Assembly (NCBI GenBank): GCA_019058445.1
Contig: JAHPZA010000006.1
Location: 128,001 to 192,000 of the forward strand
DNA from: Promethearchaeota archaeon
Lineage (GTDB): Archaea > Asgardarchaeota > Lokiarchaeia > Sigyniarchaeales > SOKP01
DNA length: 64,000 nt
Reading direction: 5' to 3'
Both the position numbers and the translations under genes were made by a program. The notes below the pieces were generated by a model. It did no database searches. It was not told the origin of the DNA and saw nothing but the letters and a program-made list of their open reading frames with translations. Numbering within the stretch: the stretch's first letter is position 1; each line of letters starts with the position of its first letter. Below are positions 36,188 to 61,275 of the stretch, in pieces.

Positions 36188-38230
36188 TTATATACTATTA
36201 CCCATTTTATAACCTCGAGCAACAGCTTCCATTACCGTTTCTGGTTTACGAGCATCTCCGATTTTCTCTACTTTAATAGTACCTAGTTGCTTGATTTCTT
36301 TATAAAGAGCATCGTTCGGTTCGACCCCGGTAGCATAATAGATATAATCTATATCACTAATTGCGTTTTCTTTACCCGAAGAGTCTGAATAATTTACATA
36401 ATTTTCGCCGATTTCAGTGACTTTTACACTTGTAAGGAATTTCACACCTAAAGCATCGCATTTATCAAGAAGTACCCATTTCGTAGTCCTTCCTAACGCA
36501 GATCCTAATTTTGGTAACATTTCAAGAACGGTAACCTTATTCCTTCCCTTATGCATCATATCTAACGCAATTTGAGGCTCTAAGGCCTTATAGAATGTAA
36601 GAAAATCAAATGCTTCACGGCTTAATGTTCCATATTTTGCAATGTATATTGCTAATTCTATACCAGTGGCTCCGCCTCCTATAATAACATTGTTCTTACC
36701 AACTGGAGCATCACCGCTTAAAGCATCATTTGCCCAATATACATTTGCTCTGTCAATACCGGGAATAGGAGGTTTTATGGGATTTGAACCAGTGGCGACA
36801 AATGCAACGTCAGGATTGAATTCTTTTACTATATCAATAGTGACATTTTGTTGGAAATGTACATTGATGCCGTATTTCTGAATCCAATAGTTATAATTAT
36901 CTATCATACGTTTAAATTCGTTTCTTCCTGGTGGAATCCAGATTATGTTTAATAACCCGCCAATTTTATCATCCTTCTCAAAAATATGAACATCATGTCC
37001 TCTAATTGCCGCTATTCTCGCAGCCTCTAATCCTCCTGCTCCTGCTCCAATAATCATAACTTTTTTCTTTTCTTTCAATGGTTTCAGTTCAGTTCGGGCT
37101 TCATTTCCCGCTCGAGCATTCCTTAAACACGTGACAGGCATCATCCTGAATACCTGGTCAAAGCATCCTTGATTGCAGCCAATACAGTTCATTATATCTC
37201 TTAATTCACCCTTTTGAGCTTTCATTGGCAGATAAGGATCAGCAATTAACCCTCTTCCAATACAAATAGCATCAGCTTTTCCGGCCATTAAAACTTGTTC
37301 GGCGAGCTCAGGGTTGTTAATTCTATTGGAAGAAAATATAGGAATAGATACACGTTTATGAATATTTTCAGCTAGGTATGTATAACATCCTTCTGGAACA
37401 TCCATTGTTAATTGTGGTGTTTTTGTTTCATGCCAACCACCTGTTACGTTGAAATAATCTAAATATTTACCTAATTCTTCTGCAATAACTACTTTTTCCT
37501 TATATGTATTGCTGCCTGGAACAAAATCATCTCCAGAAATTCGATAGCCAAGAGGGATATCGTCTACTTTAGAACGCATTAATTCAATGGTTTCAATCGG
37601 GAATCTTAAACGATTTTCAAGATCGCCCCCATATTTATCAGTTCTCTTGTTAGTTTTTGGGGAACAAAACTGATCGGTTAAATAACCAGCATTTCCGCAA
37701 ATCTCTACTGCATCGAAGCCTGCTTTCTTAGCTCTAATTGTAGCGTCGGCAAAAGCCTCTTGTTCACGCTTTATATCTTCAAGACTCATTTCCTTAGGAG
37801 TGGTCTTACTAAAATTACTATAAACTGCAGAGGGGGCAATAGGTGTTCTGCCAATTATCTGTGGGAATGCGTTTAGGCCTCAATGGTAAATCCATTTCGA
37901 GGAAGCCCCGCCATGGTATAATTGGCAACAGATCTTTACATCATCTCGAGCATTGTGTACGGCTTCAGTTAATTTCTGTAAATCAGGAATAAATTTATCG
38001 TCATCAACTGCAATCATCGATGGTAAACCCTTTGCATAAACGTCTACATAACACCCTCCTACAATTAGCATTCCAGCACCTCCCTTAGCCCTTTCAACGT
38101 AAAAATCTATCAATTTGTCAGTGATAAACCCATTTTTTGCCAAGTTGAGATGCATCGCAGGCATTATAATACGATTAGACACATCCATATCCTTTATTTT
38201 AAAAGGAGTAAATAGTTTAAAGAACTTCAT
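36188..38230 (-). CDS. NADH:flavin oxidoreductase / 2,4-dienoyl-CoA reductase (FadH-like), 670 aa after removal of a 30-nt intron; join(complement(37903..38230),complement(36188..37872))
   Basis: OYE barrel (NRIIMPAMH, ERAKGG, AGFDAVE, NKRTDKYGG), CIGCNQGC and two Rossmann motifs. Both ORF-track fragments are in one frame, separated only by a TGA inside the BHB-flanked insert. Confidence 0.9.
37873..37902 (-). other. bulge-helix-bulge (tRNA-type) intron, 30 nt, in FadH-like gene
   Basis: mRNA: GCG GGGC UU^C CUC GA AAUGG AUUUA CCAUU GAG GCCU AA^A CGC. Complete outer helix, 4-bp central helix and two 3-nt bulges; the spliced sequence reads HGGAYAFP. Confidence 0.88.
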
Positions 38231-38460
38231 ATCTCATACTCATTAAAAAGTTTTTTTTAACTAGAAATAAAACGGGAATTTATTAAAATTAATTGAATTT
38301 AATTTAAAATGCTTCTCTATTTAGAAATTTAAGTTTAAAAAGTAATTTATGTGCTTTGAGAAAATAAATATAAAAAGTATAAAAAATGGAGAATAAGGAA
38401 TAATTTTTTATCATTGAGCAATTATAATAATAAAATATTATACTTATGGTTAGACTAAAA

Positions 38461-39285
38461 ATGAGTAATGATGCTATATTAATTGAGGAAAATGAAGATA
38501 AAACTGTCACCACAATTAAAATGAATCGGCTCGCGAAAAAAAACGCGATCGGCTATGATATGATGGTGGGACTACTGGATGCGATTGATAAAGTTGAACG
38601 AACTAATGCGAGAGTAGTAATTATCACGGGAACTGATGATCTTTTCAGCTCTGGGATAGATCTAAACTTTTTAACGGGTCAAGACGCTGGACCTGAGGGA
38701 GTTCTTCCAGATCTAAAAGTCCCACGTAATTTTAGATACTTTGCAAATACATGGATCCATCCAATATTTACCAAAATCGAAAAAATGGAAAAGCCAGTGA
38801 TAGCTCGAATTAATGGAGTGTGCTTTGGACTGGCTTTTGAATTAGCACTCGCTTGTGATTTCCGATTCTGTTCAGAAAATGCAATATTTAGCATGCTTGA
38901 AACAAAAATAGGTATGAATCCTGATGTAGGAGGGACAATTAGGCTGGTAAGATTGGTTGGAATCCCAAATGCTAAGGATATCATCTTAACAGGAAGAAGA
39001 TTTGATGGGAACGAGGCTTATCGGTTAGGTGTGGTAAATAGGGTTGGAAAAACCCCTCAAGAGATGGATGAGATAATTAAAAATTATGTTGATGAATTAA
39101 TTGACAGTGCCCCATTAGCCGTAGGTTTGGCCAAGAAGCTTATAGATGATTGTTATGGGCAATCAACTGCTCTTGGTTTGGAATTGGAAACATTAGTGAG
39201 CTCACAATTATTACAAACCAAAGATGCGATGAGTGGTGCACTTGCCCGTTTACAAAAAACTAAAGCCAAATGGAGATGGAAATAA
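38461..39285 (+). CDS. enoyl-CoA hydratase/isomerase family protein
   Basis: FSSGIDL, KPVIARINGVCFGLAFELALACDFR and ETKIGMNPDVGG motifs. Confidence 0.92.
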   Translation: MSNDAILIEENEDKTVTTIKMNRLAKKNAIGYDMMVGLLDAIDKVERTNARVVIITGTDDLFSSGIDLNFLTGQDAGPEGVLPDLKVPRNFRYFANTWIHPIFTKIEKMEKPVIARINGVCFGLAFELALACDFRFCSENAIFSMLETKIGMNPDVGGTIRLVRLVGIPNAKDIILTGRRFDGNEAYRLGVVNRVGKTPQEMDEIIKNYVDELIDSAPLAVGLAKKLIDDCYGQSTALGLELETLVSSQLLQTKDAMSGALARLQKTKAKWRWK

Positions 39286-39388
39286 TTTTTTTTAATAATT
39301 TCATTCTTTTTTCTTTTTAATATTTAAGTCATTAGATTATAAAACTCATATTCAATGGTTTTTAAGATAATAATAATTCTGTATAACT

Positions 39389-40489
39389 ATGTCAGATAAG
39401 ATGTGGTATAACCTTGCCAGAAAGATTTTAAGATCTGGGGGACCTCCAGTCCCTGTTAATGAGACACTAATTGATTTACTAAAAACAGTTTTAGACGAAA
39501 ATGAAGAACAAGTGCAATTTCTTTTACAATTTAGTAAGCCCCTTAGATTAGATCAAATCAAGGAAAAGGTAGCTTTAGATAATGACACCCTAAACAAAAT
39601 GCTGGATGATTTAATGCATGTTGGACTGCTAACTGGAATTCCAAGTAGAAGTACCGGAGTTATGATATATCGTTTAGTCGCTTTTTTACCTGGTTTACTT
39701 GAATTCACGCTTATGAGAGGAGAAACTGGGGAAAAACAAAAGAAATTGGCACAAATATGGGATAAGCTATTTAAAGAAGGAGCTGAAATGCTTCAAAAGA
39801 ATTTTGAGATTGCCATGGAAGCTTATAAGAATGCTCCTGCGATTGATAGAGTTGTTCCAGTTGAAGAACAAATAGATCCACAAGAAGAGAAGATTATTCC
39901 AGTTGAAGAAGTGCATAAAATCGTTGATAGATATGATGATATTGGGGTATCTTATTGTTATTGTAGACATAGAAAAGACTTGCTTAATGATCCATGTGAG
40001 GTTGATGCCCCACGACATAATTGTTTGAGTTTTGGCAGGACAGCGAAATTTGCTATAGATTACGACTTTGCCGAGCGAATAACTAAGGAGGAAGCATTAA
40101 AGTTATTGAGAGAGGCCGAAGATTTGGGTTTGGTTCATAAGACATTTCATGTAAGAGGAAATCCAGAAATGGAAGAATTAGCGATATGTAATTGTTGTAA
40201 ATGCTGTTGCGGGAGTCTGTCTGCATATCATAAAGGTACGGGCCCCATGCACACTCTATCTTCCTATATGGCAAAAATCAATAAAGATAAGTGTGTTGGT
40301 TGCGGTACGTGTGTTGAAAAATGTCCGATGGAAGCAATTGAACTAATTAATAATGTAGCGAAGCTTAATGCTGCTAAATGTATTGGATGTGGAGTGTGCG
40401 CACATCTTTGCCCAGAAAAAGCGATAAAATTAACCAGAACTGGATTGCGGGATATATTTATCATTCCTCAGCAATCTACGGCTAATTAA
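39389..40489 (+). CDS. 4Fe-4S dicluster protein (paralog of 34872-35987)
   Basis: CYCRH, CNCCKCCC and two CxxCxxCxxxCP motifs. Confidence 0.88.
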   Translation: MSDKMWYNLARKILRSGGPPVPVNETLIDLLKTVLDENEEQVQFLLQFSKPLRLDQIKEKVALDNDTLNKMLDDLMHVGLLTGIPSRSTGVMIYRLVAFLPGLLEFTLMRGETGEKQKKLAQIWDKLFKEGAEMLQKNFEIAMEAYKNAPAIDRVVPVEEQIDPQEEKIIPVEEVHKIVDRYDDIGVSYCYCRHRKDLLNDPCEVDAPRHNCLSFGRTAKFAIDYDFAERITKEEALKLLREAEDLGLVHKTFHVRGNPEMEELAICNCCKCCCGSLSAYHKGTGPMHTLSSYMAKINKDKCVGCGTCVEKCPMEAIELINNVAKLNAAKCIGCGVCAHLCPEKAIKLTRTGLRDIFIIPQQSTAN

Positions 40490-40597
40490 TTAAATTACTA
40501 AATTTAATTCATTCTCTTTTTTACAGCTTATTAATAAAAGCAGTTTTAGAAATATCATGAATAATTTTTAAATGAAGTATTAATTTTGGGAAATATC

Positions 40598-41695
40598 ATG
40601 TCTGAAAAAGAATGGGTAAAGTTAGCAAAAAATATCATGAAGGCTGGAGAAATGCCCATGCCGATTAATGAACCTTTAATTGATTTAATTAAGGAAATGG
40701 TGAATGAGGAACAATTAAAATTTCTCCTAAATTTTAGAAAACCTTCTTATACCCTTGATCAGATTAAAGCATGGACAGAATTAGATGATGAGTCACTTAA
40801 CAAAATGCTTGCTGATTTAATGTACATAGGGATGGTGACCGGAATTCCAAGTAGGCGGACAGGAATAATGGTATATCGTTTAGTAGCATTTCTCCCTGGG
40901 ATGCTTGAGTTTACTTTAATGAGGGGTGAGACTGGCGAAAAACAAAAACGATTGGCTAAAATCTGGGAACGATTCTTTGATGAAATGAAAGCGGGGACTC
41001 AAAAATATTATGATACTATCGTGAATGTGTTTAAAAATGCGCCTCCTCTTGATAGAGTTGTTCCTATTGATGAGGAAATTGAAGTTCAAGAGGATAATGT
41101 ATATCCTTTTGAGGATGTAAAAAAAATTATAGAAAAAACTGATATTATTGGAGTTCAATATTGTTACTGCCGACATCTAAAAGATTTATTGGATGATCCA
41201 TGCAAAATAGATGCTCCACGGAGAAATTGTTTTAGTTTTGGTCGAACTGCTAAATTTTGTATAGAGCAGGGATTCTCAACAGAAATATCTAAAGAAGAGG
41301 CAATAAAATTATTAAAAGAAGCTCAAGACGCAGGTTTAGTTCATAAAGCTCTCCATAGCCGCGCAAATCCAGAATTAGAAGAAATTGGTATGTGTAATTG
41401 CTGCAAATGTTGCTGCGGAAGCCTTTCCATGTTTCACAACGGAACAGCTCCAACCTCAACTATAACATCCTACATGGCAAAAATTCATAAAGATACATGT
41501 GTTGGTTGTGGAACTTGTGTCGAAAAATGTCCTATGGAGGCAATACAATTAAATAATGGAATAGCAAAGCTTCAAGCCGCAAAATGCATAGGGTGCGGTG
41601 TGTGCGCATACCATTGTCCTGAAAAAGCTATTACATTGAATAGAACGGGACTTAGAAAAGTCTTTGTCCCTCCCCCTAGATTAGAGTCTAATTAA
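40598..41695 (+). CDS. 4Fe-4S dicluster protein (tandem paralog)
   Basis: Same motifs; highly similar to 39389-40489. Confidence 0.88.
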   Translation: MSEKEWVKLAKNIMKAGEMPMPINEPLIDLIKEMVNEEQLKFLLNFRKPSYTLDQIKAWTELDDESLNKMLADLMYIGMVTGIPSRRTGIMVYRLVAFLPGMLEFTLMRGETGEKQKRLAKIWERFFDEMKAGTQKYYDTIVNVFKNAPPLDRVVPIDEEIEVQEDNVYPFEDVKKIIEKTDIIGVQYCYCRHLKDLLDDPCKIDAPRRNCFSFGRTAKFCIEQGFSTEISKEEAIKLLKEAQDAGLVHKALHSRANPELEEIGMCNCCKCCCGSLSMFHNGTAPTSTITSYMAKIHKDTCVGCGTCVEKCPMEAIQLNNGIAKLQAAKCIGCGVCAYHCPEKAITLNRTGLRKVFVPPPRLESN

Positions 41696-41919
41696 TTTAT
41701 TACTTTTTTCAAATTCTTTAAGGATTTTTAATTTTTGACTCGTTATGTTTCTATAAATATAACGTAGTTTATTTTAGTAGTGTTTGGTTAAAAAACAGTT
41801 AAATATATTTAGTATAAAAATTCAAATTCTAATTAACAACATTTATTGAAAAGAAACCTAAAGTTAAGTACAATTTTGGAAAAAAATAAAATTTACAATA
41901 ATAAAATAGGAGAAAAAAA

Positions 41920-43206
41920 ATGGTTAGAGAAAAACCTACGTGGTATGAGACTCCGGCAATTCAGGATATGATGACTTCTTTAGGAGGAAAAGCGGTAAGA
42001 GGTGTAATGTCAAATTATTTCTCAGCGAATATATTAGCTGGAAAAGTGGGTTTAATCGGATTAACTGAATATTTAGAAGCAACTCTAGATCCAGAGGATA
42101 GAAGAGCTTTGATAATATGTGATGATTTCACACAAAGATATACTAAAAAGGTTACAGATCTTCTTGAAACAATAGATATGGATTATCAAATATATGCTAA
42201 GGTAATACCTGAAGTACCCTTTTATCAAATTGAAGAAACGGTTAAATTATGTGAGGAGTTTAAGCCAAAAGTTCTTATAGCAATTGGAGGAGGTAGCGTA
42301 ATGGATGCAACAAAAATCACAATGTTTGTCTATGAAAAACCTGAAGAAAATCTACTTTTAACCATCCCGATTGGCTCTATTGGTTTACGAAAAAAAATTA
42401 AATATTTAGTTGCGATACCCACTACCTCAGGTACTGGCTCTGAAGTAACCTCAGCCGCAGTCCTAACCGATACTGATAGAAATCCTCCGAAAAAAATAGA
42501 AATAATGACTAGTGAAGTAGTTCCCGATATTGCCGTATTAGATACGGATTTTGTAAAAGATATGCCTCCATTTCTCACGATGGCAACTGGTCTAGATGCT
42601 CTAGCTCATTCAGTTGGAAGTTATGTCACGAATTGGGGTACCCCCTATGTAGATGCAATGAATATTACGGCGATAAAGGAAATTATAAAATATCTTCCTC
42701 GTGCGTATAAACATGGCTCTGATTTGGAAGCCCGTGCTCACATGCAAATGGCTGCAACCATGGCAGGATTAGGATTTGGAAATTCAATTCCGGGTATTGA
42801 TCACTCTCTCGGACACAGCTTCGGAAAGGTTTTTGGAGTTCATCATGGTCTTTCTGTTGGGCTATTCACACCGTATTCTGTTGATTTTCAAAGGAAAGTT
42901 ACAGATAGGTGGATGGACTTATGTCCGATTTTTGGCGTAGAAATAAAAGGAAAACAAAAAGAGGATTTATTCAAAGAATTTATGCAATCGCTTAAAGATT
43001 TCATCCATTCTCTTGATGCTCCCACGTGTGTCAAAGATTTAAAAAATCCTGTAATAAATAAGGAAGAATATGTGGATAAGCTTGATCTTGTAGCTGACTA
43101 TGCTTTTAATGACGCAGTATCTCTCTTTTCTTATCGTACAATTACCCCCGAAATAATGAGAAAGATATTCGAATATGCTTGGGATGGTAAACCTATTGAT
43201 TTTTAA
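41920..43206 (+). CDS. iron-containing alcohol dehydrogenase
   Basis: GGGSVMD, PTTSGTGSEVT, DALAH and HSLGH...HHG motifs. Confidence 0.93.
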   Translation: MVREKPTWYETPAIQDMMTSLGGKAVRGVMSNYFSANILAGKVGLIGLTEYLEATLDPEDRRALIICDDFTQRYTKKVTDLLETIDMDYQIYAKVIPEVPFYQIEETVKLCEEFKPKVLIAIGGGSVMDATKITMFVYEKPEENLLLTIPIGSIGLRKKIKYLVAIPTTSGTGSEVTSAAVLTDTDRNPPKKIEIMTSEVVPDIAVLDTDFVKDMPPFLTMATGLDALAHSVGSYVTNWGTPYVDAMNITAIKEIIKYLPRAYKHGSDLEARAHMQMAATMAGLGFGNSIPGIDHSLGHSFGKVFGVHHGLSVGLFTPYSVDFQRKVTDRWMDLCPIFGVEIKGKQKEDLFKEFMQSLKDFIHSLDAPTCVKDLKNPVINKEEYVDKLDLVADYAFNDAVSLFSYRTITPEIMRKIFEYAWDGKPIDF

Positions 43207-43230
43207 AATTAAATAAAAGGAGGAATAAAA

Positions 43231-45105: not shown

Positions 45106-45200
45106 ACTTCTCAATATTTTTTTTTATTATTTATTTTTTTTTAAGATCTCTTTACTATACCCTTAAAATACTACATTCTACATAAAAAAAAAGAAAAAAA

Positions 45201-46388: not shown

Positions 46389-46391
46389 CGT

Positions 46392-48786: not shown

Positions 48787-48890
48787 GAAAAGTAAATTCA
48801 ACATTTTAGAAGAAAAATTTTTTTTTCCCCTATTGGGGAGTGTTTAGTTAAAATCACTGTAAGTGAGGCATTAGAATTAATTGTAAGAGT

Positions 48891-49706: not shown

Positions 49707-49855
49707 TGTTTTTTGCCATTTCTTAATTATTTCAAGTTAATAATTCAAGTCTAAGTAAATTTAATTTATAAACTCAAATTATTTTATTTTCCAAATTAAT
49801 ATAATTATAAAAAAATAATATGAAAAAAAAAATAACCGATTTATCGATTTTTCTA

Positions 49856-51544: not shown

Positions 51545-51694
51545 TTAACTCACTATTTTCAAAATTAATTTGTTAATTATTTATTTTGCTTTAGTGGAAT
51601 TTAATACTTTTCAAAATCTTGAATTAAATTATTCATTCTAATTAGAGAAAATAATAAAAAAAAGAGATTTAAAATTTAGAAATCTTTACATTAG

Positions 51695-52210: not shown

Positions 52211-52218
52211 TCTTTATT

Positions 52219-53463
52219 TCACCTCCATTTTCTCTGTGGTTCATCGGACATCACCACATGAGTTATTAAATTGATAGAACCGCCCCAACCATGTCCTAAA
52301 GCAGTGTGAACTGTTTTTGGTACTTGGTTGCCAGCTTTTCCCATAATTTGTAGAGCAGCTTCAGCTGGCCGTTCCATAGCAGAAGCTCCAATCGCATTTG
52401 TCGAATTGACGCCGCCAGAACAGTTCACAGGTAATTCTCCATTAAGCGCAGTAACTCCATTCCGATATGCTTCTGGAGCCTGATTTTCTTCAAAAAGCCC
52501 AATTCTTTCAACCCACATCAATTCTTGATTTGGGAATGGAGAATAAACTTCCGCATAATCAATTTCCTTATTGGGAAATGAAATACCTGCTTGTCCATAT
52601 GCCACCTCAGCTGATTTCATCGCTCCCAGTTGTTCGCACGGATCAGTTTGGCCTGCACCTGCACAATCTATCCCTATAATGGCCGATTCATTGCTGTAAC
52701 TCGCAACACCATTGATATAGACGGGAATGTCCGCTATTTGCTTCGCTTTTTCTTCAGTTGTAATTAACATCGCGCAAGCACCATCAGAGGCAGGACATAC
52801 CATTCCAAATCTCAGAGGAAAAGAGATATATGGTGTGTCGAGTACATCCTCTATGGTAATCGTAGGCATTTTTAAATGCGTCCACCAATTTTTTGCAGCA
52901 TTTCTTCTATTTTGGACAACAACGCGGGCTAGATCCTCTTCAGTTGCCCGACTACGCCTCATATAATTCATAGCTTGATAAGAAGCTACTCCAATTGCAG
53001 CTCCGGAACCCATATTTGATCTCATCCTCTCAATGGTATAGCCTAAATCAGAAAAAATAGAAAATTCTCCTAATGCTACAGATGCTAAACCTACTGTGGT
53101 ATCCCCACATGATTGCTGCTCGAAACCGATGCATAAAACCATGTCGTATAATCCTGAGGCTACACTGTAATAACCAGCTATTGTAACAGAACCTCCTGTA
53201 GTTCCGCCTGTGGTAACCCGGAGCAACGGTTTATTTTTAGAGGCCATGTGATCTCCCATCCATAATTCTGGCATATTCGCCCCTTCAAATGCGGGCATAT
53301 TACCATTGACAACCGCATCTATGTCCTTCCAATCGATATTTGCTTTTGTAATACAATCCTCAACCGCTTCATTGACCAATTCTGCCATGTTCACATCAGA
53401 ACGTTTAGATGCGTGTTCACAAAACCCACAGCTTATTATTGCTGGTTGTACTTTATGTGCCAT
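52219..53463 (-). CDS. thiolase-fold protein, Ltp3-like (no catalytic Cys)
   Basis: PAFEG, RVTTGGTTGG, AEVYSPF and SGGVNSTNAIGAS motifs. Confidence 0.85.
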   Translation of the reverse strand: MAHKVQPAIISCGFCEHASKRSDVNMAELVNEAVEDCITKANIDWKDIDAVVNGNMPAFEGANMPELWMGDHMASKNKPLLRVTTGGTTGGSVTIAGYYSVASGLYDMVLCIGFEQQSCGDTTVGLASVALGEFSIFSDLGYTIERMRSNMGSGAAIGVASYQAMNYMRRSRATEEDLARVVVQNRRNAAKNWWTHLKMPTITIEDVLDTPYISFPLRFGMVCPASDGACAMLITTEEKAKQIADIPVYINGVASYSNESAIIGIDCAGAGQTDPCEQLGAMKSAEVAYGQAGISFPNKEIDYAEVYSPFPNQELMWVERIGLFEENQAPEAYRNGVTALNGELPVNCSGGVNSTNAIGASAMERPAEAALQIMGKAGNQVPKTVHTALGHGWGGSINLITHVVMSDEPQRKWR

Positions 53464-53466
53464 TTT

Positions 53467-54600
53467 TTAACCACCTCCCTCCAATACAAATAATATACTA
53501 TTTTGAGCACAAAAACCCACCTGTCCAGAAGCAATTGCTTTCTTGGCACCGGAAACTTGATACTCATCTGCTTCCCCTCGAAGTTGCTTCGCAGCTTCTA
53601 CTATTCTTGTCAGTCCACAAGCACAAGGAGTAAATGCACTCATCGCCCCTCCAGAAGGATTTAATGCTGATCCTGAATCAAGCAACGTCGCTCCTTTTCC
53701 ATTTTCAGCCAATTTTGCTGCCTCTGCTAATATTAATTCTTCACACGATGTATGTCCAAAGAGTTCTGCTACATCAATTTCAGATTTAGGATCACTTATT
53801 CCAGCCATTTTATACGCTTTTTCGGCCGCTTTTTCCATTGAAACGCTTTTGCTTAAATCTCTATCACCTAAATAATAGGTCTCCTGACATTGTCCCATCC
53901 CGGTGATCCACACGGGGGTATCCGTAATTTTTAAACTTTGTCTCTCAGGAGCTAAAATCATCGCAGTTGCCCCATCACATGGGATAGGATACATCAATTC
54001 CCTTAAGGGACTGCTTAAAACCTCAGAATTTAACACATCTTGCACAGAGATATCCGATTTTTTCACATCTGGTAAAGCTAAAGGATTTTTCGCAGAATTC
54101 TTATAACCTTGTACTGCAACCTTCGCAATTTCTTCTTCGCTCACGCCAAATGCTTTCATATAAGCCCTCATTTGCATTCCTCCAGCAGTATATGAGTTTA
54201 TCAAACTTATGGTTCTATCAAAAGTAGGATCTAATTCCAAGATTCTCACTGGCTCATATAAATAGCATGATGGCATGCTAAATCCATATATCATCGCTAA
54301 TTTATGGTTACCTGATAATATTCTATACTGCCCGTAAGCTGCGGCATGCGCTCCATCCATTTCGACTTTAGTCTCGTCCTTCATATAAGCCCCCCCTGCT
54401 TCTACTTTAAAGCAGTTCGAAATAGTTTTTCCATCATAGTAATCGTTCGTGCACGTTACTACAGTGGTAATATCTTTTCTTTTTAAACCAGCAGAATCCA
54501 AGGCTCCCCTCACTGCAGAGTAAATGGCTTCATAGGGACTCATCATCATATCCAGTTCAGGTTTTAGTTGACAATACCCAACAATTCCTACTCGTTCCAT
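53467..54600 (-). CDS. thiolase-fold protein, Ltp4-like (no catalytic Cys)
   Basis: NDYYDGK, ETKVEMDGAHA and NPSGG motifs. Confidence 0.85.
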   Translation of the reverse strand: MERVGIVGYCQLKPELDMMMSPYEAIYSAVRGALDSAGLKRKDITTVVTCTNDYYDGKTISNCFKVEAGGAYMKDETKVEMDGAHAAAYGQYRILSGNHKLAMIYGFSMPSCYLYEPVRILELDPTFDRTISLINSYTAGGMQMRAYMKAFGVSEEEIAKVAVQGYKNSAKNPLALPDVKKSDISVQDVLNSEVLSSPLRELMYPIPCDGATAMILAPERQSLKITDTPVWITGMGQCQETYYLGDRDLSKSVSMEKAAEKAYKMAGISDPKSEIDVAELFGHTSCEELILAEAAKLAENGKGATLLDSGSALNPSGGAMSAFTPCACGLTRIVEAAKQLRGEADEYQVSGAKKAIASGQVGFCAQNSILFVLEGGG

Positions 54601-54602
54601 CT

Positions 54603-55082
54603 TCATCCACCTCCCACCGGTTCAAAACCCGCAATATCGTTGGGATGACCTTTAACATTTTTCGCCCATACAACTTTCACCTTCATCCCTTCTTTTAGAG
54701 AATCTGGACTTATGTTTATGATCGGCGCTATTATGCCTGTATCAGCTCCATCAATTTGAATCAATCCCACCATAATGGGTTCCTTTGCCTTTCTTGCTCT
54801 ACGCTCTGTAACATTATAATTAGATACTGTGAAATTTTTTAGTACTCCATTTTCAGGTAATTCCACGAATTCCTCAGCCTTAGCAAAACAGTCACCACAT
54901 CGATTTCTTGGTGGCAAAAACACACGCTGGCACTTGGAACATTTGCTGCCTATAAATTGTTTGTTTTGCAAACCGTCATAGAATTTATCCATTACAATTC
55001 CTACCCAAAAATCAAACTCAGCACGCACCATGCCTCGTTTCACATAAACATCTTGTTCATCTTCAAGATTTAATTTTGAAAT
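54603..55082 (-). CDS. DUF35 Zn-ribbon/OB-fold protein (probable ATT start)
   Basis: CSKC..PPRNRCGDC and DGAD. The frame extends upstream of the GTG at 55043 to an ATT 6 nt after GGGTGA. Confidence 0.85.
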   Translation of the reverse strand: MSKLNLEDEQDVYVKRGMVRAEFDFWVGIVMDKFYDGLQNKQFIGSKCSKCQRVFLPPRNRCGDCFAKAEEFVELPENGVLKNFTVSNYNVTERRARKAKEPIMVGLIQIDGADTGIIAPIINISPDSLKEGMKVKVVWAKNVKGHPNDIAGFEPVGGG

Positions 55083-55267
55083 CGTTCTTCACCCAATATT
55101 TTTTTTTTAGTTTTAATTTAAATTTTAATTATTAATTAATTGGATATCATTATAAATATAAGTTTCAATAAGATATTCAAAAATTTTCAATTACTTAGTT
55201 TGCGAATTGTCAGTAAAAAAGAGAGAAAAAAATAAATTCGCTTTGCTCTTCTAGGAACGTAAATTCT

Positions 55268-55384
55268 TTAAGGAGAACCCTCGCCACAACCTGGAATACT
55301 GACTCCAGCGCTGGCAAGACTCAGTCCATAAGCTAAGGTAAGCATGACCGCTAAAGCGACAATAGTTTTTTTGTGAACATTCAT
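55268..55384 (-). CDS. small secreted peptide precursor, 38 aa: MNVHKKTIVALAVMLTLAYGLSLASA|GVSIPGCGEGSP
   Basis: Higher-GC patch in an AT-rich spacer; AGGT 7 nt before ATG; n/h/c signal peptide ending A-S-A; T-tracts downstream. Below the ORF-track size cutoff. Confidence 0.7.
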   Translation of the reverse strand: MNVHKKTIVALAVMLTLAYGLSLASAGVSIPGCGEGSP

Positions 55385-55493
55385 TTTAGTAACCTACTTA
55401 GAGTTTATAATCATTCGATATTACAAGTAGTATTTACTAATTTATATCCGCTTATTTAAATAACACGAATTTAGAAATTTAGCGAATTAAAAT

Positions 55494-56540
55494 TTATAAT
55501 AATTTTTTCAAAACCACACCTATTTTTTTGATAGCATATTGAATATCATCTTCATTGATTCCGTAATGGGTGACAAAACGAATTCTATGCTTATCGATAT
55601 TAAAGGCCATAACCCCCTCATTGCCGAGAGTTCGTACGACTTTCCCGATTCGAATACCTTCAGGCACAGATATTATCAAAATATTTGTATCAGGGTTTAA
55701 AATTTTTACAGATGAATTAAAACTTGCAATTCCCTCGGCAAGTAATTTCGCATTTTTATGATCCTCTTCGAGTCTTTGAATCCATTTTGGTTCGAGAGCA
55801 ACCAAACCAAATGAGGCAATGATTCCAGCTTGTCTCATGCCTCCTCCTACCATTTTTCTATATTTTCTTGCTTCCGAGATAAAACTTTTAGAACCTGCGA
55901 CTAAAGATCCAACGGGGCACGAAAGTCCCTTTGATAGGCAAAACATAAGGCTATCAACATGCTTAGTGATTTCGGTAACATTCACGCCTAGCCCGATAGC
56001 CGCATTAAATACTCTTGCGCCATCCAAATGGAATTTTAAACCATTTTTGTCTGCAAATTGCTTCATTTCTCTTAAAACTTCAGGTTTAATTATCGCTCCT
56101 CCATGATAGTTATGCGTGTTTTCAGAAGTTAGTAGAGTTATCTTTTGTTCTTTAGCTCTGTTTTTATCGATTATATTTTGAAGCTCATCAATAGAAGGAG
56201 CGCCCCTATTAGAAGAATAGAGATTAACCTTTAATTCTGCAATTTTCGTAGCGCTACTTAATTCATTTTGGTAAATATGACATTGCTCTTCAATTAGGAT
56301 TTCTTCACCACGATTGGTATGAGATAGCATTGCGACGAGGTTAGCTTGTGTACCAGATGTAACATACACCGCCGTTTCCTTTCCGACTATTTTTGCTGCT
56401 TTCTCTTCCAATTTATTAACACTCGGGTCTTCTCCAAAGACATCATCCCCAATGTGTGAATTATCTAAAGATTTGAGCATTTCCCACATTTCAGGAGATG
56501 GTTTTGTAAACGTATCAGACCGCAAATCGACTACTTTCAT
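55494..56540 (-). CDS. ltaE: low-specificity L-threonine aldolase
   Basis: DLRSDT, GDDVFGEDP, SGTQAN, ENTHN, HLDGARVFNA and CLSKGLSCPVGS motifs. Confidence 0.93.
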   Translation of the reverse strand: MKVVDLRSDTFTKPSPEMWEMLKSLDNSHIGDDVFGEDPSVNKLEEKAAKIVGKETAVYVTSGTQANLVAMLSHTNRGEEILIEEQCHIYQNELSSATKIAELKVNLYSSNRGAPSIDELQNIIDKNRAKEQKITLLTSENTHNYHGGAIIKPEVLREMKQFADKNGLKFHLDGARVFNAAIGLGVNVTEITKHVDSLMFCLSKGLSCPVGSLVAGSKSFISEARKYRKMVGGGMRQAGIIASFGLVALEPKWIQRLEEDHKNAKLLAEGIASFNSSVKILNPDTNILIISVPEGIRIGKVVRTLGNEGVMAFNIDKHRIRFVTHYGINEDDIQYAIKKIGVVLKKLL

Positions 56541-56590
56541 ATAGTATCCCAATAAATAATCCTTAAGTGAGCTATAAAGTGAATAAAGGA

Positions 56591-57175
56591 TTAAAAATTA
56601 TATGATGGCAAAAACTCATAGAGTACATCTTCTTCTAAATTTAAAAGAAATTCAGGGGAAATTGTTTTGAGAGGTATTTTTTCTGTCCTTGTAAGGGTAA
56701 TTTTTTCGGTGTCTAACGCTCCATCATACCAATGCTTTAAAAGCCCGATTCTTGAGATTTTTTTGGTATTTAGTAAGCTACGAAGAAAATCCAGCCATCT
56801 CTTTGTTTCATTTTCTTTTTCCTTAGGAGTAAGTTTTTTCCTTAATGTTGAAGAACCTTCCCTTTGCAGTTTTTCTTTTATCCATTGATCAATTTGCTCA
56901 TCCGTCCATTTTTTCTTTTTTAAGTTGCGCACTTTTTGAGAATTAAGTAAATTTTGATATTCCTGTAGATTATTTGAAGACCCTAAAACAGTATCACAGT
57001 CGCAATAGTCTTTTGTTGCTCGCAAATATAGCTCTCCAGAACGAAGCTGAGACAGAATGGATTCATTCTCTATAGGATTAAAGGCCATGTTATATTCATT
57101 AAATATATTGTCTAATTCTTCTAACACAACGCCTTTAGGAAGGGTTGCAGTTATATAAAAACACATATTAACCAT
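56591..57175 (-). CDS. hypothetical protein (MC...CDC motif)
   Basis: 194-aa ORF overlapping the upstream gene's stop. Confidence 0.7.
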   Translation of the reverse strand: MVNMCFYITATLPKGVVLEELDNIFNEYNMAFNPIENESILSQLRSGELYLRATKDYCDCDTVLGSSNNLQEYQNLLNSQKVRNLKKKKWTDEQIDQWIKEKLQREGSSTLRKKLTPKEKENETKRWLDFLRSLLNTKKISRIGLLKHWYDGALDTEKITLTRTEKIPLKTISPEFLLNLEEDVLYEFLPSYNF

Positions 57176-57584
57176 TAATTTTACTAGATATTTTACTTTT
57201 TCTTAATTTTTGATAGAGGCAGCGAAGGTTTTTCGCAGAATTTAAATCGGTAGGATCTAGCTCTAAGACCCGGTTATATGCCTCTTCAGCTCTTTTATAA
57301 TCCCCTTTATCATAATAAATAATCGCAAGGCGCCTCCATACGGTTGGGTTGAAATTAGACTTTAATGCTTGCTCATATTCATTTTGATCTAAAAGGATTC
57401 TCTTAACATCACGTCTTACTAATTTGGTATAGCAGCCACAGCAATAAAACTGTAGAGAAGGATGATTCCAGAGCTTTTTTAATTTAATTTCGTCAAAAAC
57501 TTGATTTACTTCTTTAAATTCATCAAAATTCAATAGTTTTTTACAGGCCCAACAATATTTTTTAGAGATAATCATCTTCAACAA
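57168..57584 (-). CDS. small Zn-finger (CWAC...CCGC) plus TPR protein
   Basis: CxxC and CCxC pairs followed by one TPR (WRRLAIIYYDKGDYKRAEEAYNRVLELDP). Confidence 0.75.
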   Translation of the reverse strand: MLKMIISKKYCWACKKLLNFDEFKEVNQVFDEIKLKKLWNHPSLQFYCCGCYTKLVRRDVKRILLDQNEYEQALKSNFNPTVWRRLAIIYYDKGDYKRAEEAYNRVLELDPTDLNSAKNLRCLYQKLRKSKISSKING

Positions 57585-57644
57585 TAATTAATCAGTGATT
57601 ATAAGATGATAATTCCTTTATATAACATCTTAGTAATGTGAACT

Positions 57645-58826
57645 TTATTTCTGAAATTTTTCCTTAATCGCTTTTTGTTCTTCCCGGGCTTTAAATGGTT
57701 TAGAGGGTTTAGACATATCGAGTGTGCTATCGCACGCCCAACATACGTTTTCCAAATTAGTTAAAGCATTATAACATCTTTCACAATATGAAGTTTTACA
57801 ATTTCTGCAAACAAAGTTAATTCCTATAACTTCCCCCTTACATACCAAGCATATCTTTTTTTCTTTTGAGACAATTACTTCTTCTTCGGTTAATTTTTGA
57901 GGTCTAGTAAAACCTTTAAAGATATCTTCTGGTTCCTTTTCCATTGTTTTCTCAAAGGATACTCTTGAAATAGTGCTTTTAGCCTTTTTCATTTGAACGA
58001 TCCCAAATATTATTAGTATAGAGTATAATGGGATAAATAATAGAATATAAAATTTGGTAGAAACCGGAATAGGGGTGGAGATTAAACTTAAAATAACAAA
58101 TATCATTGACCCATGAAAAAGAATAAGAATTATCCAATGAAAAACTGAATTTAATCTAATAAAGGTATCTAGTTTAATAAAGAGTGGTATAAGAAGTAAT
58201 GTTCCGCAAACGAGCATTACCGTTGGTATAATAGAAGGATGAATTCCGATGTAATATACAGTACTTATAAAAATAAAGGAAGAAAAACCAAAATTAGAGC
58301 CAGTTATAATAAACACTGAAATAATTCTAAGTTCTCTGCTTGATTTAATAGAAAGCTTTATACCAGCATAATTAATTATGTATACATTAAAAAGGAAGGC
58401 AATTGCTATGAAAGTTGAGTCTACAATCATAAAATATAAACCAATCATATTGATTACTGATAATAAATATTTTGTAGATTTAAAGACTCGCTCAAATAGA
58501 AATACGAAAATTGTTGCTCCTATTACCCAGCTCAGTGAGGCAAGATGAAAAAAAATATTCGAGAACATACTCTCATCTGCAATTGCATAAAAACTATGTC
58601 CGACATAATGGCCCTCTACGAAATAAATTGCTAAAAAATAAAAAATGAAATTTAATGTTATCGCAAATATAAACATCATCCCAAATCCATATAATATTAA
58701 TTTTTCATTACGATTCTCATTCTTATAAGCCCGATTCAAGTAAAGTAAGCCTATTAATAGCGTCATAAATATTACTATTATCCACAATGCTCGTTCTAAA
58801 GGATCAAATATTAAAGCTTCGTTCAT
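57645..58826 (-). CDS. multi-pass membrane protein with C-terminal 8-Cys RING-like zinc finger
   Basis: About nine TM helices, then FTRPQKLTEEEV..SKEKKICLVC..CRNC..YCERC..CWAC. Confidence 0.8.
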   Translation of the reverse strand: MNEALIFDPLERALWIIVIFMTLLIGLLYLNRAYKNENRNEKLILYGFGMMFIFAITLNFIFYFLAIYFVEGHYVGHSFYAIADESMFSNIFFHLASLSWVIGATIFVFLFERVFKSTKYLLSVINMIGLYFMIVDSTFIAIAFLFNVYIINYAGIKLSIKSSRELRIISVFIITGSNFGFSSFIFISTVYYIGIHPSIIPTVMLVCGTLLLIPLFIKLDTFIRLNSVFHWIILILFHGSMIFVILSLISTPIPVSTKFYILLFIPLYSILIIFGIVQMKKAKSTISRVSFEKTMEKEPEDIFKGFTRPQKLTEEEVIVSKEKKICLVCKGEVIGINFVCRNCKTSYCERCYNALTNLENVCWACDSTLDMSKPSKPFKAREEQKAIKEKFQK

Positions 58827-59076
58827 TTGGCATCAACATTAAATTTCTAATAAATATTAATCTACATAAATGTAATTAATAGTATTCTTAGGAATTTTTA
58901 ATTTATAAATTTTAATTTTGTTTAGTCGTGAAGGAATATTCTAAAAATCTAATTGAGATAATCTTTTTTTCAATTAATAGAATAACTTCTAGAACTAAAA
59001 TAGAAAACATATCAAATTATATGTCATTTTCTATGAAATTATCTCAATAAAGAGAATAAAATAAAAAAAATAGTAA

Positions 59077-59445
59077 TTAAGTTTTAATAATGATTGTAAT
59101 TGCTCTCGTAAGACGGATAACGTCCATAACTTTTCCTTGCTCTACGATGATTTGTTCTCGACTTATTGCGTGGGTAAAATCTCCTTTTCCTTCACATATT
59201 CGTACGATAGCATTCGGATCTCCAGACATAACAATCTCTGCATTTGGGAGTGTTCCATCCACAATTTTTCCTTTCTTCTCCTTAATTTCTAAATAAAAGG
59301 GATCTTCATTCTCCAGATTAAATTGAAAAGTCATATCCCAGTTTACATCCTTGCCAGCAACGTTAGTAACAAATACCGTTTGTGCCTTAGGATTTCCATT
59401 TAAACCTTCAATAACTTTTGTTAAATTTTCTTTTGCAGCTCCCAT
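59077..59445 (-). CDS. SCP2 sterol/lipid-binding domain protein
   Basis: 122 aa; FQFNL....FYLEIK.......G....AEIVM..D.....I..G pattern; operonic with DUF35 and thiolase. Confidence 0.75.
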   Translation of the reverse strand: MGAAKENLTKVIEGLNGNPKAQTVFVTNVAGKDVNWDMTFQFNLENEDPFYLEIKEKKGKIVDGTLPNAEIVMSGDPNAIVRICEGKGDFTHAISREQIIVEQGKVMDVIRLTRAITIIIKT

Positions 59446-59447
59446 TT

Positions 59448-59951
59448 TTAAGCACCTCCCTCGTATTCTGGTTTAGCAATCCATCTTTCATACTCATCTT
59501 CAGGTACAAAAAAGAAATCCGTCATTTTACCTTCTCTGTTTTTGGAAAATACCGCTTTAACTCTTCGTCCTTTTTTAACTTTTGAGGGAACTAGATTTTC
59601 TGAAAATATTCCTTGAAATAAAGCAGTGTCAGCTCCATCTAATTTTATAAAACCTATAGAATAGGGTACCGATTTTATAAACGCAGAAGTTGTATACCAA
59701 ACGATAGTGCTAACCTCAATCGTTCCTGTTTGTTTCATTTCAATCCATTCGGTAGGCGAATAACATTCTGAGCAATTAATTCTTGGAGGCATCCATATTT
59801 TCCCGCAATTTGAATTAGTGCATTTAGTTCCTAACAACTTTTTATTGTTCATGACCTCAATAAAGAACTTAGATTGTCCTCCCATCGTGTATTTATAGTT
59901 AATTTTAATTATATCCCTTATTTCATGTGATTGAAAATCTTGCTTGCTCAT
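59448..59951 (-). CDS. DUF35 Zn-ribbon/OB-fold protein
   Basis: GTKC....C..PPRINCSEC and KLDGAD; ATGA overlap with the thiolase stop. Confidence 0.9.
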   Translation of the reverse strand: MSKQDFQSHEIRDIIKINYKYTMGGQSKFFIEVMNNKKLLGTKCTNSNCGKIWMPPRINCSECYSPTEWIEMKQTGTIEVSTIVWYTTSAFIKSVPYSIGFIKLDGADTALFQGIFSENLVPSKVKKGRRVKAVFSKNREGKMTDFFFVPEDEYERWIAKPEYEGGA

Positions 59952-61275
59952 GGTTGTTTCAATCCCTCCTCATTCGTCATTACAATAATCGCAGCATATG
60001 CTGCTCCAGGACCTCCAATTGAGTGCGCTATAGCCCTGCCTTTTTCAATTGTTACTTGGTGCTTACCAGCATCTTCTCGAAGTTGTAGTGCTGCTTCTCC
60101 TGTGCTCATAATCCCTGTAGCACCTACAGCGTGACCGCATCCAATCAATCCTCCTGATGGGCAACATGGTACTTCACCATTAATCCATGGCCCTTCTCCT
60201 GGTTTTTCAAAGCTATTTTCAATCCAAGGACCTCCTTCTCCAAAAGGAACAAATCCCAATTCTTCATACGATATAACCTCTTGCCCGCTAAATGCATCAT
60301 GCAGTTCTGCTAAGTCAACTTGTTGCTTTATTTTATTATAATCAAGTCCTGCCATTTTATAAGCTACTTTAGCTGCATTAATATTTGAATATAATCTTCC
60401 CATATCTTCTCTATTACCTATAAAACAGTCAGTATTCGCCGCACCTACACCCGTAATCCAAATTGGTTTTTCAATACCTAATTCCTTAACTTTTTCTTCT
60501 GGTGCTAGAATTAAGGCCGCTGATGCTTCTGAGTAAAGACAACAATCTAACATTTTAAAAGGATAACAAATAATCCTCGAATTCAAGACATCTTCAATTG
60601 TTAAATCCATCGGAGACTGCGCTTTAGGATTAAGCATTGCGTTTCCATGGTTTTTAACGCTAACAATAGCCAAAATTAACTAAACGTTAAAATTTTAAGC
60701 CATATGCTCTTCAGTTGGATTTCCAAATTCCTCAAAATGAGCATTAACCATAGAAACGTAAGAACTAGCTGCCATCATCCCCATAGGATACTCATAAGTC
60801 AAATCTGCTGAATATGCGATGGCATTGAGCACTTCTGGTGTTGTTGTACCTGTTTAAACTTATTAGGGATATCCTAATTGATTTGTTCATCGTAACAATC
60901 GTTACATTTTTCCAGACCAAGACATAGGCATAGGTCTGACAACCCAGAAGCAACTTCAGCATAAGCCATCCTTACAGTATAGCCGCCTGTAGCACCTCCT
61001 GAGGCAATCCGGGTACCTGGCTTATCATTCATCCCGATGTAACTATTAGTAAAAATATCCGGCATGAATTGCCGTTCAAACAGCTCGTTATAAATCCCAT
61101 ACACTGTTGATTCCAAGTCTTTGTGCGTAATTTGTGCTCCGTTCTTATTGGCATCGTCAAGCGCCAATTTTGTCGCGTCATAAGCCAGCTCAAAATAGGT
61201 CTTATCCAAATATCTTGCTCTAAAAGGTGTTATTCCTACACCTATTATCGCTACTTTTCTCACTTTATTTTTCAC
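59948..61275 (-). CDS. thiolase-fold protein (no canonical Cys), 422 aa after removal of two introns; join(complement(60883..61275),complement(60696..60853),complement(59948..60665))
   Basis: Exon 1 has KVAIIGVG, ASGGATGG and EK. The hidden middle exon reads TGTTTPEVLNAIAYSADLTYEYPMGMMAASSYVSMVNAHFEEFGNPTEEHMA. Exon 3 has VSVKNH, ELHDAF and GHAVGATG. Confidence 0.88.
60666..60695 (-). other. BHB-type intron, 30 nt (thiolase intron 2)
   Basis: mRNA: AU GGCU UA^A AAUUUUAAC GUUUA GUUAAUUUU GGCU AU^U GU. The unspliced frame has UAA (spanning the 5' junction) and UAG; the spliced sequence reads EHMAYVSVKNH. Confidence 0.75.
60854..60882 (-). other. BHB/BHL-type intron, 29 nt (thiolase intron 1)
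   Basis: mRNA: GAAC AA^A UCA AUUAGG AUAUC CCUAAU AA GUUU AA^A CAGG. Removal fixes both a stop and a frameshift; the spliced sequence reads DCYDEQTGTTTPEV. Confidence 0.8.

What the first reader, a model, noticed from the sequence alone, without database searches (positions are those of the whole stretch)
36188..61275. Candidate system: tRNA-type (bulge-helix-bulge) introns in ordinary metabolic mRNAs of a probable Asgard archaeon, three in 64 kb
Seen in sequence: two otherwise intact enzyme genes are interrupted only by three 29-30 nt inserts (37873-37902, 60666-60695, 60854-60882). The inserts are unrelated in sequence but share one architecture: a 4-bp exon/intron helix, a 3-nt bulge, an internal hairpin with a 5-nt loop, the helix partner, and a second 3-nt bulge. 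The same rule (cut after the 2nd nt of each bulge) removes every stop and frameshift and gives full-length 670-aa and 422-aa proteins. Established: this is the cleavage rule of the archaeal splicing endonuclease EndA, with ligation by RtcB. The well-known protein-gene example is the cbf5 intron of some Crenarchaeota. Inference: this lineage splices diverse mRNAs with the tRNA machinery, possibly at many loci that pipelines call pseudogenes. That would be a non-spliceosomal intron system in relatives of eukaryotes and a possible post-transcriptional switch on lipid catabolism. I cannot confirm novelty without a literature or database check.
Basis: partly seen in the sequence, partly recalled or inferred. 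Interest (0 to 1): 0.96.

Follow-up and report, generated by a model that had tools for sequence, protein, structure and literature searches.

The report
tRNA-type mini-introns in Asgard protein genes
Two enzyme genes of a Lokiarchaeota-type (Asgard) archaeon are each broken only by 29-30-base inserts shaped like tRNA introns, and comparison with dozens of related genomes shows these are almost certainly real introns cut out of the mRNA, a kind of splicing so far confirmed in print for one archaeal gene (cbf5).

Summary
The three inserts (37873-37902, 60666-60695, 60854-60882, minus strand) sit where stated. Removing them by the cut rule (after the 2nd base of each 3-nt bulge) gives intact 670-aa and 422-aa proteins. 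All 18 orthologs of the FadH-like reductase lack the insert and read exactly as the predicted junction.

The thiolase ortholog in 61 Promethearchaeota MAG loci carries 29-35-nt inserts at about 9 positions. EF-2 carries them at 4 positions. In a structure-blind test, 31 of 36 inserts have a 4/4 central helix at the homology-defined register, against a 2.6% background (P about 3e-17 over 17 independent introns). Shared introns show compensatory changes. Exons are under strong purifying selection (dN/dS about 0.03).

A homology-based sample census found 5 introns per about 1000 genes, so tens per genome, not hundreds.

Caveats:
- There is no RNA evidence.
- Single-sequence folding stability is unremarkable.
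- A motif-only genome scan is no better than a decoy.
- The catalytic EndA subunit is missing from this 92.6%-complete assembly, although 22 of 24 relatives have it.
- The 'lipid switch' idea has no support.

This scan has flagged similar mRNA introns before in other archaeal genomes. I found no publication on them beyond cbf5.

The parts
37903..38230 (-). Exon 1 of the FadH-like OYE/FAD reductase (2,4-dienoyl-CoA-reductase-like). It ends ...GGGGCTT.
   Evidence: Pfam Oxidored_FMN profile positions 1-108. Spliced ORF.
37873..37902 (-). 30-nt BHB mini-intron 1. It is in frame, carries TGA, and splits a Tyr codon T|AC.
   Evidence: Absent from all 18 orthologs, which read QLYHGGAY|AFPQ. 4/4 helix GGGC/GCCT at the single homology-defined register. 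Single copy in the genome and not found in 40 relatives.
36188..37872 (-). Exon 2 of the FadH-like reductase, including the stop codon.
   Evidence: Pfam Oxidored_FMN 142-338 plus Pyr_redox_2. 670-aa product.
60883..61275 (-). Thiolase exon 1.
   Evidence: Pfam Thiolase_N. Aligned to orthologs.
60854..60882 (-). 29-nt BHB mini-intron (site A). It causes a frameshift.
   Evidence: Shared with G002 (2 of 29 nt differ) and, in diverged form with compensatory changes, with L079. Unrelated introns sit at or within 3 nt of this site in three other MAG loci.
60696..60853 (-). Thiolase exon 2 (52 codons).
   Evidence: Aligns without gaps to insert-free orthologs.
60666..60695 (-). 30-nt BHB mini-intron (site E). 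It is in frame, carries TAA, and splits a Tyr codon TA|T.
   Evidence: Shared by 7 MAG loci. Covariation: 4 inner-helix pairs changed on both sides; 87% of cells paired against 19-47% when slid.
59948..60665 (-). Thiolase exon 3, including the stop codon.
   Evidence: Pfam Thiolase_C_1. 422-aa product.

Best explanation
The three inserts are archaeal bulge-helix-bulge (BHB) mini-introns inside protein-coding genes of a Promethearchaeota (Lokiarchaeota-type Asgard) archaeon.

Proposed mechanism. In the pre-mRNA, four exon bases just upstream of the 5' splice site pair with four bases near the 3' end of the intron. This 4-bp helix is flanked by two 3-nt bulges, and an intron-internal hairpin forms the second flanking helix. 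The tRNA splicing endonuclease (EndA, alpha-beta type in this lineage) cuts after the 2nd base of each bulge. RtcB joins the exons, restoring the reading frame to the nucleotide.

What is shown: the inserts, the motif, exact frame restoration, insert-free orthologs, covariation, purifying selection, and the RtcB and EndA-beta genes.

What is inferred: that cleavage and ligation actually happen, and that EndA and RtcB do it.

The introns are one instance of a lineage-wide population of such introns that is gained and lost quickly. It numbers roughly tens per genome and includes introns in translation factors.
For: 1. Excision by the rule gives intact 670-aa and 422-aa ORFs.
2. 18 of 18 orthologs of gene 1 lack the insert and match the predicted junction, including the split, invariant Tyr.
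3. Most thiolase orthologs are insert-free ORFs of 415-434 aa. Across 61 distinct MAG loci from independent studies, 29 inserts of 29-35 nt lie at about 9 positions.
4. Structure-blind test: the product that best matches insert-free orthologs is produced by a register with a 4/4 central helix in 31 of 36 inserts. The other 5 have 3/4. Background is 2.6% per register. 15 of 17 independent introns pass, Poisson-binomial P = 3e-17.
5. Covariation at site E: 4 pairs changed on both sides, 0 of 500 shuffles reach the score, 87% paired against 19-47% in slid controls. There are also exon/intron compensatory changes in the central helix, GAGC/GCTT against GAAC/GTTT.
6. Own thiolase against the G002 thiolase, which share intron A: pN 0.036, pS 0.64, dN/dS 0.026, no stops after splicing, and the intron differs at only 2 of 29 nt.
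7. EF-2 of this genome has a 30-nt intron (ACAG AT|A ... CTGT AG|T, 9-bp inner stem). Its removal gives exactly the sequence of the insert-free same-genus ortholog. Four other relatives have EF-2 introns, two of them at other sites in the P-loop.
8. Census against 1.59 Mb of a same-genus genome: interruptions of own orthologs are either single stop codons or inserts of 29, 30, 30, 30, 32 and 48 nt. Five of these six inserts are 4/4 BHB introns.
9. RtcB is present. An EndA subunit is present. The cut rule is the published one for cbf5 (PMC2738675). Asgard EndA is reported as the alpha-beta type with the broad-specificity loop (PMC5829648).
Against: - No transcript, cDNA or proteomic evidence could be obtained. 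Junction searches in metagenome contigs were empty.
- Folding energies of the three pre-mRNA segments are not exceptional (z -0.9 to -1.4). For intron 1 the MFE fold absorbs the 5' bulge into a 7-bp helix.
- The outer exon-exon helix is weak (3, 0 and 2 bp), so the motifs are partly of the relaxed type.
- A motif-only genome scan finds as many frame-fusing BHB-like sites as a mirror-image decoy. The motif alone is therefore not diagnostic.
- The only EndA gene in this assembly has Phe and Ser in place of the catalytic Tyr and His of M. jannaschii EndA. The catalytic alpha paralog seen in 22 of 24 relatives was not found. The assembly is 92.6% complete.
Confidence: 0.85

Rival explanations
1. 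The inserts are removed from the mRNA, but by something other than EndA plus RtcB, for example another structure-specific nuclease and ligase.
For: The catalytic EndA alpha gene was not found in this assembly. No enzymology is available.
Against: The geometry (4-bp helix, two 3-nt bulges, cut after the 2nd bulge base) is exactly the EndA substrate rule (PMC2738675). It is met at 31 of 36 homology-defined junctions. 22 of 24 relatives have both an alpha and a beta EndA gene. RtcB is present.
Confidence: 0.07
2. The inserts stay in the mRNA and are skipped by the ribosome (translational bypassing or hopping, as in T4 gene 60 or mitochondrial 'byps'), or are read by recoding.
For: The inserts are short, carry stops and contain a hairpin, which are superficial similarities to bypass elements. 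This comparison rests on my own knowledge.
Against: Two of the three window introns split a codon: T|AC and TA|T. Both encode a Tyr present in every insert-free ortholog aligned at intron 1 and in some of them at intron E. A hop cannot assemble such a codon. There are no matching take-off and landing codons. The 4-bp helix and 3-nt bulge register has no role in bypassing.
Confidence: 0.03
3. The genes are pseudogenes inactivated by small insertions (transposon footprints or MITE-like elements).
For: Annotation pipelines would call them frameshifted or interrupted. Genuine pseudogenes with in-frame stops also exist in the genome ('extra 0' class).
Against: - dN/dS is 0.03-0.06, with synonymous sites near saturation, between genomes that share an intron, and there is no other lesion.
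- The same kind of insert sits in EF-2 and an aIF2-gamma-like GTPase.
- The inserts are single-copy, not repeats.
- The introns are more conserved than synonymous sites and show compensatory changes.
Confidence: 0.03
4. The inserts are assembly or sequencing artefacts.
For: The genome is a draft of 10 contigs.
Against: The same inserts, with sequence divergence, occur in independently assembled MAGs from different projects. The census shows no 1-2-nt frameshifts among about 1000 orthologs.
Confidence: 0.01

Closest known systems
cbf5 pre-mRNA intron of Crenarchaeota (Watanabe 2002; Yoshinari 2006; Yokobori 2009, PMC2738675)
   Same: It is a short intron inside a protein-coding gene and forms a (relaxed) BHB. 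The predicted cut lies between the 2nd and 3rd bulge residues. It depends on the hetero-oligomeric EndA. It shows lineage-specific gain and loss.
   Different: The published case is one gene with one site, in thermophilic Crenarchaeota, and is confirmed by cDNA. Here there are many unrelated genes (reductase, thiolase, EF-2, aIF2-gamma-like, acs, Sir2 and others). A gene can carry up to 3 introns, with micro-exons of about 15 nt. Independent gains recur at neighbouring sites. The host is an Asgard lineage. There is no cDNA evidence yet.
[quoted passage not shown]
   Same: The motif, the presumed enzymes and the pattern of repeated, apparently independent gains at sites that can form a BHB are the same. 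No route of arrival is known in either case.
   Different: The hosts of these introns are mRNAs. The flanking exon helix is therefore made of coding sequence rather than a tRNA stem, and splicing must be exact to the nucleotide to keep the frame. That preprint does not treat protein-coding genes.
Unconventional HAC1/XBP1 mRNA splicing (Ire1 endonuclease plus tRNA ligase/RtcB) in eukaryotes
   Same: It is non-spliceosomal. A protein endonuclease cuts at two stem-loop sites in an mRNA, and a tRNA-type ligase joins the exons. This comparison rests on my own knowledge.
   Different: The endonuclease and the recognition motif differ. It affects a single regulated target with a known stress-switch function. 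No regulation is shown here.

Membership tests
Archaeal BHB intron (EndA substrate) | Two 3-nt bulges on opposite strands, separated by a 4-bp helix | tested here: met
   All three window introns have a 4/4 helix (G-U pairs allowed) with exact 3-nt bulges. 31 of 36 inserts in three gene families meet this, against a 2.6% background.
Archaeal BHB intron (EndA substrate) | Flanking helices on both sides (strict hBHBh') or on at least one side (relaxed forms) | tested here: met
   An inner, intron-internal helix is present in all three, although in intron A it starts after a small internal loop. The outer exon-exon helix is only 3, 0 and 2 bp. The strict form is met by intron 1 at best and the relaxed form by the others.
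Archaeal BHB intron (EndA substrate) | Cleavage after the 2nd base of each bulge yields the mature junction | tested here: met
   The rule is as published (PMC2738675). The predicted junctions equal those of insert-free orthologs at the protein level, including the split Tyr codons.
Archaeal BHB intron (EndA substrate) | The host encodes the splicing endonuclease and an RtcB-type ligase | tested here: inconclusive
   RtcB scores 574 bits. One EndA gene is present, but it has F and S at the catalytic Tyr and His positions, so it is beta-like. The catalytic alpha was not found in this 92.6%-complete assembly. It is present in 22 of 24 relatives.
Archaeal BHB intron (EndA substrate) | Demonstrated excision and exon ligation (cDNA, circular intron, in vitro cleavage) | not testable with these tools
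   No RNA data are available. Metagenome junction searches were empty.
Translational bypass element (gene 60 / byp type) | Matched take-off and landing codons, with the coding gap skipped without joining split codons | tested here: not met
   Introns 1 and E split Tyr codons (T|AC, TA|T). These must be joined at the RNA level to give the conserved residue.

The most novel reading that the evidence does not exclude
Promethearchaeial genomes hold a turning-over population of tRNA-type introns in mRNAs: tens per genome, with repeated independent gains at the same hot spots and micro-exons of about 15 nt.

New copies may settle where exon bases can pair with the intron's own 3' segment, for example by reverse action of the EndA/RtcB machinery. 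This is suggested by related EF-2 introns sitting 6 nt apart after the repeated exon word CAGAT, each paired to its own upstream exon tetramer.

That would make this a living prokaryotic model of intron invasion of coding genes in the lineage nearest to eukaryotes.
Probability: 0.25. Interest if true: 0.95.

Novelty: new variant of a known kind. Interest (0 to 1): 0.86.

Why it matters
Splicing of archaeal protein-coding transcripts by the tRNA machinery has been confirmed in print for one gene (cbf5). Here the same mechanism appears to serve many unrelated genes, including translation factors, in the archaeal group closest to eukaryotes. Gain and loss are fast among close relatives.

This matters in three ways:
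1. It shows that intron-bearing coding genes are tolerated and maintained in an Asgard lineage without a spliceosome. That bears on how the eukaryotic ancestor could cope with introns.
2. Gene callers will mis-annotate such genes as pseudogenes or fragments, which distorts metabolic reconstructions of Asgard MAGs.
3. It gives a concrete, testable set of junctions for RNA-seq of cultured relatives.

Tried and rejected
- **Motif-only genome scan.** I scanned the whole genome for frame-fusing deletions of 16-70 nt with a BHB. This gave 43,090 hits against 43,529 for a mirror-image decoy, and 470 against 471 at stricter settings. About 1.7 million fusing deletions at ordinary gene junctions swamp any signal. 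The scan is uninformative and also shows that the motif alone is not diagnostic.
- **Thermodynamic folding** of the three segments gave weak z-scores.
- **Exact-junction searches**, spliced or unspliced, for gene 1 and EF-2 in metagenome contigs gave no hits.
- **Search for a donor copy** of the introns in the genome and in 40 relatives found none.
- **Search for the catalytic EndA alpha** in this assembly by Pfam, by the beta protein and by a same-genus alpha protein did not find it. The weak hit on contig C3 is an unrelated methyltransferase region.
- **Other BHB-like frame-fusing candidates in the window** (near 4100, 11486, 23033, 27034, 43200) are ordinary neighbouring genes with their own starts and different Pfam families.
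- **A 48-nt interruption on contig C9 and a 19-nt one in G005** from the census have no BHB and look like gene boundaries.
- **Paralog-based split-gene search** gave 10 sites, of which 4 are natural gene boundaries.
- **Literature searches** found no report of mRNA BHB introns in Asgard archaea. The library lacks most subscription journals.


Full report
**1. The observation**

Both genes lie on the minus strand.

| Intron | Coordinates | Length | Layout |
|---|---|---|---|
| 1 | 37902->37873 | 30 nt | GGGC TT\|C, hairpin with loop ATTTA, GCCT AA\|A |
| A | 60882->60854 | 29 nt | GAAC AA\|A, stem ATTAGG/CCTAAT with loop ATATC, GTTT AA\|A |
| E | 60695->60666 | 30 nt | GGCT TA\|A, stem TTAAC/GTTAA with loop GTTTA, GGCT AT\|T |

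- Cutting after the 2nd base of each bulge and joining the ends gives stop-free ORFs of 670 and 422 codons.
- The fragments carry consecutive parts of Oxidored_FMN plus Pyr_redox_2, and of Thiolase_N plus Thiolase_C_1.
- The surrounding genes are intact. They encode enoyl-CoA hydratases, an acyl-CoA synthetase, two further thiolases, a DUF35-type protein, AOR and Fe-ADH. The 'acyl-CoA metabolism' context is therefore fair.

**2. Who it is**

- The window is C6:128001-192000 of a 4.61-Mb, 10-contig genome that is 92.6% complete and has 33% G+C.
- Close relatives of the thiolase are in MAGs named Promethearchaeota or Promethearchaeia. This is the Lokiarchaeota-type Asgard phylum.

**3. Insert-free orthologs**

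- All 18 orthologs of the reductase in related genomes have open frames of about 664-679 aa. They read QLYHGGAY/AFPQ (or RY/TF) without a gap across the predicted junction.
- The Tyr codon is split T|AC by the insert. Only the BHB register reproduces this invariant residue.
- For the thiolase, most orthologs are uninterrupted frames of 415-434 aa.

**4. A lineage-wide phenomenon**

DNA alignment of the thiolase from 61 distinct MAG loci shows 29 inserts of 29-35 nt at about nine positions.

- Intron A is shared with a same-genus genome, with 2 of 29 differences. A diverged form occurs in L079, where ATTAGG/CCTAAT has become ATTTGG/CCAAAT.
- Unrelated introns occupy the same or adjacent codon in three other MAG loci.
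- Intron E is shared by seven loci.
- One relative (G005) has three introns in this gene.
- Two relatives have two introns separated by a micro-exon of about 15 nt.
- The reductase ortholog of G021 has a different 29-nt intron elsewhere in the gene.

These genomes come from independent projects, which excludes an assembly artefact.

**5. Is the BHB more than chance?**

I first chose, without looking at structure, the deletion(s) whose product best matches insert-free orthologs. Only then did I ask whether one of those registers has the motif.

- 31 of 36 inserts (29 thiolase, 5 EF-2, 2 reductase) have a 4/4 central helix there. The other five have 3/4.
- Neighbouring registers reach 4/4 in 2.6% of cases.
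- Grouped into 17 independent introns, 15 pass. The Poisson-binomial P is 3e-17.
- At site E, the named structure is 87% paired against 19-47% when slid. It has four pairs changed on both sides, and no shuffle out of 500 reaches its covariation score.
- Central-helix pairs also co-vary between a synonymous exon position and the intron: GAGC/GCTT against GAAC/GTTT.

Two honest negatives:

- Single-sequence folding energies are unremarkable.
- A motif-only genome scan cannot be told from a mirror-image decoy.

The motif is convincing only together with homology.

**6. Are the genes alive?**

- After BHB splicing, none of the intron-bearing thiolases has a stop.
- Own against G002 (both carry intron A): pN 0.036, pS 0.64, dN/dS 0.026. 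Other intron-sharing pairs give 0.04-0.06.
- The intron itself (7% divergence) is far better conserved than synonymous sites.

**7. Essential genes**

- A 30-nt insert ending in an in-frame TAG has a perfect ACAG/CTGT helix, bulges AT|A and AG|T, and a 9-bp inner stem.
- Its removal gives AGQLQMTD|SDDEEQERGITI, identical to the insert-free same-genus ortholog.
- Four further relatives have EF-2 introns: one at the same site (G021), one 6 nt downstream with a related sequence (G006), and two inside the P-loop (G013, G012). All have 4/4 helices.

**8. How many?**

- *Paralog-supported split genes in this genome.* There are six BHB junctions: the three in the window, a Sir2 gene split at Pfam profile positions 105/108, and two acyl-CoA synthetase paralogs with unrelated introns two codons apart.
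- *Structure-blind census.* I compared the genome with 1.59 Mb of a same-genus genome, covering about 1000 orthologs. Interruptions of own genes are either single stop codons or inserts of 29, 30, 30, 30, 32 and 48 nt. There were no 1-2-nt frameshifts.
- Five of these six inserts are 4/4 BHB introns. They lie in EF-2, acs, Sir2, a flavin reductase and an aIF2-gamma-like GTPase. The 48-nt case looks like a gene boundary.
- Extrapolated, this is a few tens per genome. Three in one 64-kb window is a local excess that I cannot explain.

**9. Machinery**

- RtcB is present.
- The one EndA gene found (202 aa) aligns with M. jannaschii EndA but has Phe and Ser at the catalytic Tyr and His (the residue roles are from my knowledge of that enzyme). 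It is therefore a beta-type structural subunit.
- 22 of the 24 relatives searched have two EndA genes. The better-scoring one keeps Y, H and K.
- That alpha gene is not in this assembly, most simply because the assembly is incomplete.
- ARAGORN recognises only 23 tRNAs, 19 of them with introns. This suggests heavily interrupted tRNA genes, as reported for some other Asgard classes.

**10. Rivals**

- *Bypassing* cannot rebuild the split Tyr codons.
- *Pseudogenes* are excluded by the selection data and by the introns in EF-2.
- *Artefacts* are excluded by independent assemblies.
- *A nuclease other than EndA* cannot be excluded without enzymology.
- *The proposed regulatory switch* has no support. 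Presence is patchy among close relatives, and the introns also sit in housekeeping genes.

**11. Novelty**

- Full-text searches found only the cbf5 case as confirmed archaeal pre-mRNA splicing (PMC2738675), plus a 2026 preprint on Asgard tRNA introns that does not treat mRNAs.
- Earlier follow-ups of this same scan reached the same reading for single genes in other archaea: selD in Jordarchaeia, and carB, uppS and the proteasome alpha subunit in DPANN. Those are AI notes, not publications.
- I rate this a new variant of a known kind. The mechanism is known. The scale, the multi-intron genes, the turnover and the Asgard host are new.

Noticed in passing
G000:C9:770313-770918 (L001:1219-1824): The only EndA homolog in this assembly has Phe and Ser at the catalytic Tyr and His positions, so it is a beta-like subunit. 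The catalytic alpha paralog, present in 22 of 24 relatives, was not found in the assembly.
   Followed up: yes
L127 / L143 / L137 (EF-2 of own genome, G021, G006): Related EF-2 introns sit 6 nt apart, after ACAGAT in own genome and G021 and after TCAGAT in G006. Each pairs its 3' segment (CTGT or CTGA) with its own upstream exon tetramer. This could be intron sliding, or re-insertion guided by base pairing.
   Followed up: partly
L031:2287-2379 and L071:1835-1931 (thiolase of G023 and another MAG): Two mini-introns are separated by a micro-exon of only about 15 nt.
   Followed up: partly
G000:C6:877181-877209 and C6:862879-862908 (minus strand): Two paralogous AMP-binding acyl-CoA synthetase genes carry unrelated 29- and 30-nt BHB introns. 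These lie two codons apart in the same conserved GWTQ..P.PR stretch.
   Followed up: partly
G000:C10:652461-652778 (L123): A 229-codon open frame nearly identical to the C-terminus of EF-2 lies about 30 kb from the full EF-2 gene. It is a partial duplicate or gene fragment.
   Followed up: no
whole genome G000: ARAGORN finds only 23 tRNA genes in 4.6 Mb, 19 of them with an intron call and several dubious. Most tRNA genes are probably too interrupted to be recognised.
   Followed up: no
G000 strand-index coordinates: C10(-)497790-498132, C3(-)556777-557098, C6(+)1172108-1172573: Single in-frame stop codons occur where the same-genus ortholog has a sense codon. These may be selenocysteine or other recoding sites, or real pseudogenes. 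Multi-stop cases on contigs C5, C6 and C8 look like decayed repeated genes.
   Followed up: no
L057, L085, L092: Contigs filed under bacterial or Thermoplasmata MAG names (Deferrimicrobium, Mcinerneyibacteriota, Thermoplasmata) carry a thiolase 82-89% identical to the Promethearchaeota one. They are probably mis-binned Asgard contigs.
   Followed up: no
window 36188-61275: Three introns within 25 kb is about ten times the density estimated for the genome. Five of roughly a dozen intron-bearing genes seen here act on acyl-CoA. This may be chance, family size or a target preference.
   Followed up: no
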